Source: Eledone cirrhosa (Eukaryota). From it: DNA of 64,000 nt. How positions within the stretch are numbered: position 1 is the stretch's first letter; each line of letters opens with the position of its first letter. Below the pieces are notes generated by a model. It did not search any database, was not told where the DNA came from, and saw only the letters and a list, made by a program, of their open reading frames with translations. A program made the position numbers and the translations under genes. The stretch is from NCBI GenBank assembly GCA_964016885.1, contig CAXHJY010001543.1, positions 1-64,000 of the forward strand. Direction: 5' to 3'. Below are positions 24,528-24,635 of the stretch, piece after piece.

Positions 24528-24635
24528 GTGTCCCAACGACTTTTTTTAGCCGTTGTTCGCACCAACCTGAGGTATATGGCCCTTAAAGCGATGAAATGCC
24601 TAGGACGGTTGGAGGGTCACTGATGAAGGACTCAC
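24528..24635 (+). ncRNA. Candidate permuted hammerhead ribozyme (inverted copy)
   Basis: Same sequence as 23780-23887, on +; predicted scission between 24576 and 24577. Confidence 0.75.

What the first reader, a model, noticed from the sequence alone, without database searches (positions are those of the whole stretch)
24528..24635. Hammerhead ribozyme with its core strands in a non-circularly permuted, pseudoknotted order
Seen (+ copy): GUCC [CAACGACU-U6-AGCCGUUG] U UCGC A CCAACC UG AGGUAU A^UGGCCCU UAAA GCGA U GAA AUGCCU AGGAC GGUUGG AGGGUCA CUGAUGA A GGAC. All conserved hammerhead core nucleotides are present. Stem III is AGGUAU(24570-75)/AUGCCU(24596-601), followed by H17=A24576. Stem I is UGGCCCU(24577-83)/AGGGUCA(24613-19), directly before CUGAUGA(24620-26). 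Stem II is reduced to A24627-U24592. Established: types I, II and III are circular permutations (C-G-S, G-S-C, S-C-G; S = substrate strand, C = CUGANGA, G = GAAA). Here the order is S-G-C, which is not a circular permutation, forces a pseudoknot and would be missed by standard HHR models. I recall that natural non-circularly permuted hammerheads have been reported in a few animals, so the class may not be new, but I know of no description of this family and scaffold. Inference: it self-cleaves the multimeric RNA of the 627-bp element. An identical copy lies on the minus strand at 23780-23887.
Basis: partly seen in the sequence, partly recalled or inferred. Interest (0 to 1): 0.93.

Follow-up and report, generated by a model that had tools for sequence, protein, structure and literature searches.

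The report
Scrambled hammerhead ribozyme in animal retroelement
A predicted self-cutting RNA motif, with its parts in a scrambled order so far described only from environmental sequences, sits in a very abundant mobile repeat of this animal genome; a similar fold appears at the ends of Naiad retrotransposons, which were thought to lack such ribozymes.

Summary
Confirmed. The 108 nt hold every hammerhead core base in S-G-C order, which forces pseudoknots; the minus-strand copy is identical. Across 17 subfamily copies, stem I and three scaffold helices show compensatory changes. Type SGC is published (Eckert 2023), but only from metatranscriptomes and with a normal stem II. Here stem II is at most one pair: a 5' splint strand pairs with both stem II strands, forming a four-way junction.

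The motif lies in a 627-nt non-coding repeat with Penelope-type hallmarks: tandem arrays, 5' truncation, inverted arms, a ~45-nt tail and (TA)n targets. The genome holds 14,095 related cores. This is a retrozyme-like element with a non-type-I ribozyme.

Dead Naiad-type retroelements in this genome carry an S-G-C motif behind their RT. Read by eye, published Naiad consensus ends show 9 S-G-C and 6 C-S-G folds, although Naiads were reported to lack hammerheads. Cleavage, transcription and circles are untested. All Naiads scored here are decayed, so other Penelope-like elements probably move it now.

The parts
24528..24635 (+). Type-SGC hammerhead with split stem II (complete copy on the short inverted arm)
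24530..24533 (+). Splint strand a (GUCC), pairs with GGAC 24628-31 just after A9/N10.1
   Evidence: invariant in 17 of 17; other paired sequences in older families C, D, E (majority sequences read by eye)
24534..24555 (+). Hairpin arm of the four-way junction
   Evidence: 4 of 8 pairs change on both sides; in the MFE fold
24557..24560 (+). Splint strand b (UCGC), pairs with GCGA 24588-91 just before N11.1/G12
   Evidence: 98.5% of cells paired, 1 pair changes on both sides
24562..24567 (+). Strand c (CCAACC), pairs with GGUUGG 24607-12, directly 5' of the stem I 3' strand; likely counterpart of the stem I-II interaction helix
   Evidence: 98% paired, 1 pair changes on both sides; the role is inference
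24570..24583 (+). Block S: stem III 5' strand, H17 = A24576, predicted cut between 24576 and 24577, stem I 5' strand
   Evidence: cut site by analogy with PMC10085705
24588..24601 (+). Block G: b', U11.1, G12-A13-A14, stem III 3' strand
24613..24631 (+). Block C: stem I 3' strand, CUGAUGA, A10.1, a'
23780..23887 (-). Identical complete ribozyme on the long arm; predicted cut between 23839 and 23838
23730..24448 (-). Long arm: about 1.15 units of the 627-nt non-coding repeat, 5'-truncated, ending about 50 nt past GGAC (tail end) in (TA)n
24449..24640 (+). Short inverted arm, 5'-truncated, ending about 7 nt past GGAC (short end) in (TA)n
   Evidence: (I1)
23730..23772 (-). Penelope-type tail between the two recurrent 3' ends
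   Evidence: compare PMC11167929, PMC8557442
24403..24448 (-). Partial second core (C block and most of the G block, no S block) at the 5' truncation point
52988..53093 (-). Same ribozyme fold in a second, 74%-identical family (B); element about 52950-53500

Best explanation
A non-autonomous, Penelope-dependent retroelement (retrozyme-like, 627-nt unit) that carries a non-circularly permuted type-SGC hammerhead on a new scaffold. SHOWN from sequence and covariation: block order S-G-C; stems I and III; a 5' splint strand (a, hairpin, b, c) whose a and b segments pair separately with the strand after CUGAUGA and the strand before GAAA, leaving stem II at 0-1 bp inside a four-way junction. SHOWN from the genome: many copies, tandem arrays, 5' truncation, inverted arms, two fixed 3' ends, (TA)n targets. 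[quoted passage not shown] About 20 bp in four helices (a, b, c, III) would still join the two ends, which should favour ligation to a circle. A Penelope-like RT/endonuclease then primes at nicked (TA)n at either of two sites after the ribozyme and runs round the circle or multimer. INFERRED, weaker: this ribozyme type came from Naiad PLE 3' ends, while present-day mobilisation is by C-terminal-EN PLEs (Neptune/Nematis type). Odds: fold real about 0.93; cleaves in vitro about 0.8; moved by PLE machinery about 0.9; Naiad origin about 0.65.
For: Fold: (94% of 612 cells paired; 9 of 36 pairs change on both sides; 25 such cells against 7.0 in shuffles, 0/500; slid controls 28-45% paired; stem I 3 of 7 pairs). 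The in-window family B copy keeps every helix at 74% identity. Run X1 shows the matching stem I changes C24580U/G24616A and C24582U/G24614A as common variants (contigs, not phased, kind of run not on record). Older families C and D fit the descriptor in 11 of 30 loci. Element: 147 exact copies of the 62-nt S-G-C core; median identity 98.4%; arrays of 8 and 9 units, each with a ribozyme; no Met-initiated ORF over 40 codons in the monomer. All 6 inverted family-A insertions with both ends called have one short and one tail end, as for PLE two-site initiation (PMC11167929). Direct junctions to PLE coding sequence without microsatellite in 2 of 90 loci (L002, L079). Naiad link: about 150 decayed RT matches with the DKA motif, a 22-aa longer RT3-RT4 spacing and the CxC/GxKF region. 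A conserved motif lies downstream of the RT on the same strand in 9 of 21 loci; 2 pass the strict S-G-C descriptor with a U3-A8 core, a known natural variant (PMC4209133). Published Naiad ends.
Against: No cleavage or expression data. Stem III has no pair changed on both sides, its outermost pair is broken in 9 of 17 copies, and helix a is invariant within families A/B. The 10.1-11.1 pair fails in 4 of 17 copies, and the G10.1-C11.1 pair that published SGC descriptors require is absent. The 17 sequences are related, and I derived the structure from one of them. The covariance model of A/B hits old family E (E about 1e-4 to 2e-3) but not families C, D, F or the Naiad remnants, so shared ancestry with Naiads rests on architecture, not on sequence. 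Five of the 9 Naiad-remnant hits overlap loci used to build the profile. No N-terminal endonuclease was found in the remnants. The published Naiad folds were read by eye only. In another PLE, HHR cleavage was dispensable in vitro and no RNA-seq reads ended at the cut site (PMC11167929).
Confidence: 0.78

Rival explanations
1. The fold is kept as a structured signal for PLE RT loading or priming, and cleaves weakly or only with a protein; self-cleavage is not what selection maintains.
For: Both insertion ends lie 7-60 nt after the motif, not at the cut site. Stem II is 0-1 bp. In the Anolis PLE, HHR catalytic mutants did not affect insertion in vitro (PMC11167929). Only 1 of 9 predicted Xenopus retrozymes cleaved (bioRxiv 10.64898/2026.07.22.740005).
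Against: Core bases are invariant in alignment A1, though those copies were picked by a pattern containing the core. The Naiad remnants show the compensatory U3-A8 core, which points to selection on the catalytic fold. Published SGC ribozymes cleave.
Confidence: 0.12
2. The active ribozyme forms between tandem units or between two molecules (for example C of one unit with S and G of the next), avoiding the intramolecular pseudoknots, like dimeric minimal PLE hammerheads.
For: Tandem arrays are common. Dimeric action is known for PLE hammerheads (PMC4209133). Nested folding does not form stem I.
Against: Stem III is long and not palindromic. The splint helices that tie S, G and C together locally are conserved and covary. 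Units are 627 nt apart. Naiad ends carry a single motif.
Confidence: 0.06
3. On origin only: the SGC ribozyme of these repeats arose independently of Naiads (convergence, or capture from a viroid-like RNA), and the Naiad resemblance is architectural.
For: No sequence similarity between the A/B model and Naiad remnants. The Octopus Naiad ribozyme motif is not found in this genome. Chimeric junctions involve C-terminal-EN PLEs, not Naiads.
Against: The same order a-hairpin-b-c-S-G-c'-C-a' is seen by eye in Naiads of several phyla. Naiads share the (TA)n target and the tail.
Confidence: 0.3
4. An ordinary minimal type II hammerhead cutting after GAAAUGCCUA, or a chance arrangement.
For: GAAA precedes CUGAUGA, as in type II.
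Against: That fold needs G24603 to pair with A24619 (sequence). No type II or III hit at stems >=5 bp in the window. The S-block strands covary with their partners.
Confidence: 0.02

Closest known systems
Type-SGC hammerhead ribozymes (HRIMA-1 and SGC variants; Eckert et al. 2023, PMC10085705)
   Same: Block order S-G-C, complete core, short S-to-G linker, a helix next to the stem I 3' strand, pseudoknotted core.
   Different: Published ones were found in metatranscriptomes, with a direct stem II (descriptors need G10.1-C11.1 plus 2-6 bp) and an interaction helix made with a 3' tail. Here the motif is genomic and in an animal, stem II is 0-1 bp, and a 5' splint plus hairpin forms a four-way junction.
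Metazoan non-LTR retrozymes (Cervera and de la Pena 2020, PMC7229834; Li, Clavereau and Pollet 2026, bioRxiv 10.64898/2026.07.22.740005)
   Same: Non-coding tandem repeats with one hammerhead per unit, thousands of copies, proposed PLE dependence.
   Different: They are defined by, and were searched with, type I hammerheads; the invertebrate units described are about 170-400 nt. This one has type SGC and a 627-nt unit. Circular RNA is not shown here.
Penelope-like elements, in particular Naiads (Craig et al. 2021, PMC8557442) and the tail mechanism (PMC11167929)
   Same: 5' truncation, partial tandems, inverted 5' copy, tail at one end, (TA)n bias.
   Different: No ORF. The tail is about 40-50 nt rather than 30-40. 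Naiads were described as lacking canonical hammerheads, with 17 flagged only as HHR_core or HHR_half_core; the flagged Octopus one folds, by eye, as this SGC scaffold.

Membership tests
Hammerhead ribozyme | Core C3-U4-G5-A6-N7-G8-A9, G12-A13-A14, A15.1-U16.1, H17 | tested here: met
Hammerhead ribozyme | Stem I adjacent to H17 and C3 | tested here: met
   7 bp, 97.5% paired, 3 pairs change on both sides
Hammerhead ribozyme | Stem III | tested here: met
   5-6 bp; one-sided changes only in A/B; 5-9 bp of other sequence in families C/D
Hammerhead ribozyme | Direct stem II of 2 or more bp closed by G10.1-C11.1 | tested here: not met
   at most one pair (A-U 11, G-U 2, unpaired 4 of 17); replaced by helices a and b
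Hammerhead ribozyme | Site-specific self-cleavage after H17 | not testable with these tools
   needs in vitro transcription
Type-SGC hammerhead (Eckert 2023) | 5'-to-3' block order S, G, C | tested here: met
   definition
Type-SGC hammerhead (Eckert 2023) | Published descriptor (CUGAUGAG or CUGAUGAUG, CGAAA, stem II 2-6 bp) | tested here: not met
   descriptor read; the sequence has CUGAUGAA and UGAAA
Type-SGC hammerhead (Eckert 2023) | Helix joining the distal sides of stems I and II | tested here: inconclusive
   helix c abuts stem I and is linked to b by one base; the equivalence is inferred
Non-LTR retrozyme | Non-coding tandem repeat with a hammerhead in each unit | tested here: met
Non-LTR retrozyme | Type I hammerhead | tested here: not met
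   order is S-G-C
Non-LTR retrozyme | Expressed as linear and circular RNA | not testable with these tools
   no RNA holder listed
PLE-mobilised element | 5' truncation, partial tandems, inverted arm, tail at one end, microsatellite target | tested here: met
Naiad PLE (remnants in this genome) | DKA motif, longer RT3-RT4 spacing (IFD), CxC and GxKF/Y region | tested here: met
   DKA in L184; 83 versus 61 aa; CxC/GTKF region in L222; criteria
Naiad PLE (remnants in this genome) | N-terminal GIY-YIG endonuclease | tested here: inconclusive
   shared homology stops about 0.7 kb upstream of RT3; the one GIY-YIG hit (L215) is a nested C-terminal-EN PLE

The most novel reading that the evidence does not exclude
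Non-circularly permuted hammerheads are a regular part of animal genomes. Naiad Penelope-like elements of several phyla end in one (S-G-C with a splint four-way junction in place of stem II in cnidarians, cephalopods and others; C-S-G in nematodes), and non-autonomous retrozymes have amplified the S-G-C form to more than ten thousand copies in this genome. The hammerhead core would then work without a direct stem II.
Probability: 0.7. Interest if true: 0.93.

Novelty: new variant of a known kind. Interest (0 to 1): 0.87.

Why it matters
It would move non-circular RNA permutation from a curiosity of environmental sequences to an abundant feature of animal genomes. It would explain the reported absence of hammerheads in Naiads as a blind spot of the search descriptors, which strengthens the view that a 3' ribozyme is general to Penelope-like elements. 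It would add a hammerhead architecture without a direct stem II, testable in days on a 108-nt RNA and attractive for structure work. The several helices joining both sides of the cut suggest a built-in bias to ligation, relevant to natural and engineered circular RNA. Retrozyme and ribozyme censuses that use type I-III descriptors would be missing whole families.

Tried and rejected
Rfam scan of the window: 0 matches. Nested MFE folding of both strands and of family B: z between -1.15 and -1.51, uninformative for a pseudoknotted fold. Expression: no RNA holder listed; the four runs laid were contigs of unrecorded kind and show no ends. The two other organisms gave only 4 and 14 partial records, so I drew nothing from them. 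Metagenome and viral hits to the core pattern are chance (10 of 10 without stems). Two searches for the published Octopus Naiad ribozyme motif in this genome: 0 hits. GIY-YIG family search: the 30 best loci and 12 long-frame loci examined were C-terminal-EN PLEs, none a Naiad. Upstream 5 kb of 20 older S-G-C-pattern loci: no Naiad RT. A decayed stretch at L184:5925-6005, first taken for the Naiad ribozyme, was dropped; the conserved motif lies at L184:6817-6967. The GIY-YIG upstream of the RT in L215 was rejected as a nested insertion. Copies selected carry a forced change in stem I, so I left them out of alignment A1, as well as single-change variants of families A and B: 17 of 56 distinct sequences were used. 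Pfam named only a sub-threshold RVT_1 match in 1 of 3 PLE fragments. About six further Naiad ends in the supplement show GAAA before the core but I could not fold them convincingly; they are not counted. Earlier-findings look-ups by sequence and by the full word set returned nothing. The published Naiad consensus sequences could not be scored by program, so that count stays a by-eye reading.

Full report
Observation. The order along the RNA is: substrate block S (stem III 5' strand, A17, stem I 5' strand), block G (GAAA), block C (CUGAUGA). A generic descriptor without any stem II requirement finds three S-G-C hits in the window and none in 30 shuffled windows. Rfam finds nothing.

The fold. 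The third hit, at 52988-53093 on the minus strand, belongs to a second family (B), 74% identical over the ribozyme and itself abundant (40 perfect matches among 40 scored). I aligned 17 distinct copies from families A, B and their sister subfamilies (17 of 56 distinct sequences) and counted pairs for the full pseudoknotted structure. 94% of 612 cells pair, against 28-45% when partners are slid; 9 of 36 pairs change on both sides; 25 cells show such a change against 7.0 in shuffles. Stem I has 3 such pairs, the hairpin 4, helices b and c one each. Stem III varies on one side only, helix a is invariant, and the single stem II pair is broken in 4 of 17 copies. The sequences are related and the structure came from one of them, so these counts are supportive, not a significance test. 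Older families found with a looser pattern (205 matches against 7 control) carry different sequence in the helices; 11 of 30 loci pass the descriptor, and their majority sequences show other pairings for helix a (read by eye). The model: a 5' splint strand (a, hairpin, b, c) pairs with the strand after CUGAUGA (a'), with the strand before GAAA (b') and with the strand before stem I (c'). Stem II shrinks to 0-1 bp inside a four-way junction.

The element. The ribozyme sits near the end of a 627-nt unit with a pyrimidine-rich sense strand and no Met-initiated ORF over 40 codons. The 62-nt S-G-C core occurs 147 times exactly, and the wider G...C pattern 14,095 times with 0 control matches, in a 3.0-Gb genome. 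The repeat landscape suggests an octopod; that is my recollection and no call names the organism. Family A copies have a median identity of 98.4% (34 alignments). They form arrays: 8 units at L245 and 9 units of a sister subfamily at L246, each unit with a ribozyme. They are 5'-truncated at varied points and often have an inverted second arm. Their 3' ends fall in (TA)n at two recurrent places, about 6-12 and about 46-64 nt after GGAC. Among 21 insertions, all 6 inverted ones with both ends called have one short and one long end. The window locus is such a case: a long minus-strand arm (23730-24448) with the tail and a short plus-strand arm (24449-24640) without it. It has one complete ribozyme per strand and so is a product, not a source of monomers. 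These traits are those described for Penelope-like elements (PMC8557442, section 6), and the tail matches the two RT start sites shown in vitro (PMC11167929, passages).

Who moves it. The genome has young C-terminal-endonuclease PLEs with long open frames (938 and 1096 codons). In 2 of 90 loci the repeat joins PLE coding sequence directly, without microsatellite: L079 on the same strand with 2-3 nt of overlap, and L002 as the second arm of an inverted insertion. These involve two different PLE families, so no single partner is named. Template switching in one insertion event is my inference.

The Naiad link. Craig et al. 2021 report that Naiads lack canonical hammerheads but flag 17 Naiad families as HHR_core or HHR_half_core, among them Naiad_Ovul. 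In the sequence excerpts shown from their supplement (places 1-60 of 62 for one core spelling; places 1-20 of 43, 23 and 25 for the other three) I read by eye 9 Naiad ends with S-G-C order and the same a-hairpin-b-c scaffold (helix a is weak in the two Octopus ones). They include Naiad_Obim, Naiad_Ovul, Naiad_Aacu and Naiad_Anas. Six more have C-S-G order and a normal stem II, including Naiad-1_Nbra and Naiad-2_Nbra. The file lists at least 53 Naiads; the rest were not shown or not foldable, and none was scored by program. In Naiad_Obim, for instance, stem III is AUGGU/ACCAU, stem I CUGCCC/GGGCAG and helix b GACAC/GUGUC, running right up to G12. In the own genome, a DKA-motif pattern led to one decayed RT, and that to 152 matches, the others at 31-64% identity in the rows listed and mostly with stops. 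They have the Naiad diagnostics (DKA; RT3-RT4 spacing 83 versus 61 aa; CxC/GxKF region), but no N-terminal endonuclease was found. A conserved motif lies 0.4-2.7 kb downstream of the RT on the same strand in 9 of 21 loci (5 of the 9 helped build the profile). Two pass the strict descriptor with 7-9 bp stem I, 6 bp stem III, a GUC cut triplet and a U3-A8 core, a variant known from Schistosoma PLEs (PMC4209133, passages). The A/B covariance model does not hit these remnants, so the link is by architecture. As all Naiad copies scored are decayed while family A is very young, Naiads are unlikely to be the present mobiliser.

Mechanism. Shown: structure conservation, copy number, insertion anatomy. 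Inferred: array transcripts cut after A17 in each unit; the monomer's ends stay joined by helices a, b, c and III (about 20 bp), favouring circle formation; a PLE protein nicks (TA)n and primes at one of two sites after the ribozyme; running round the template yields tandem, truncated and inverted copies. No cleavage, transcript or circle could be tested.

Comparison with print. Eckert et al. 2023 (main text parts 1-6 of 8, supplement parts 1 and 8 and term searches; figures not seen) define type SGC, show cleavage at 0.007-0.19 per minute, and state that none was found in genomes of known organisms apart from one bacterial GCS candidate. Their descriptors need G10.1-C11.1 and a 2-6 bp stem II, which this motif lacks. 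Retrozyme papers use type I models only (PMC7229834, passages; bioRxiv 10.64898/2026.07.22.740005, parts 1-3 of 5, supplements not seen). PMC13725137 and PMC11662667 (passages) add nothing on animal genomes. Searches for a report of permuted hammerheads in animals, cephalopods or Naiads found none. The library lacks most subscription journals, so a report elsewhere cannot be excluded.

Verdict. A real, conserved, high-copy type-SGC hammerhead fold on a new scaffold, inside a PLE-mobilised retrozyme-like element. It has the core and the predicted action of a hammerhead, but fails the direct stem II criterion of published SGC and the type I criterion of known retrozymes. It is a new variant of a known kind, with a wider claim about Naiads that is cheap to test.

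Noticed in passing
window 16046(+) and 15675(-); 30228(+) and 30078(-); 63964, 63829, 63694(-): Seven ordinary type I hammerhead motifs: two inverted pairs and a 135-nt tandem array, probably PLE ends or classical retrozymes. Rfam missed them all.
   Followed up: partly
window 52950-53500 (-): A second young SGC repeat family (B, about 540-nt unit), similar to family A mainly over the ribozyme, nearly always ending at the long (tail) site.
   Followed up: yes
L092-L120, L163-L182: At least four older, decayed repeat families (C-F) with S-G-C order; family E is detected by the A/B covariance model.
   Followed up: partly
L152 (-) 4200-5730 and L157 (-) 4250-5570: Two Neptune-type PLE families, one with an intact 938-codon frame, have long 3' UTRs in which my pattern found no hammerhead core. 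They may have lost or replaced the ribozyme.
   Followed up: no
L231:4836-4960, L224:5065-5205, L222, L223, L225, L184:6817-6967: An extinct Naiad-type family whose shared homology stops about 0.7 kb upstream of RT3, possibly endonuclease-less, with a U3-A8 hammerhead core.
   Followed up: partly
PMC8557442 supplement, nematode Naiads: C-S-G hammerhead folds with long stems, read by eye. Type CSG was known from only two metagenome sequences.
   Followed up: partly
window 21900-22400 and 44580-45010: Copies of a 160-200 nt dispersed repeat (families D12, D13); by recollection an octopus-type SINE, not tested.
   Followed up: no
window 39950-42825: A 2.9-kb degenerate CAG/CAA/AGT trinucleotide repeat tract.
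   Followed up: no
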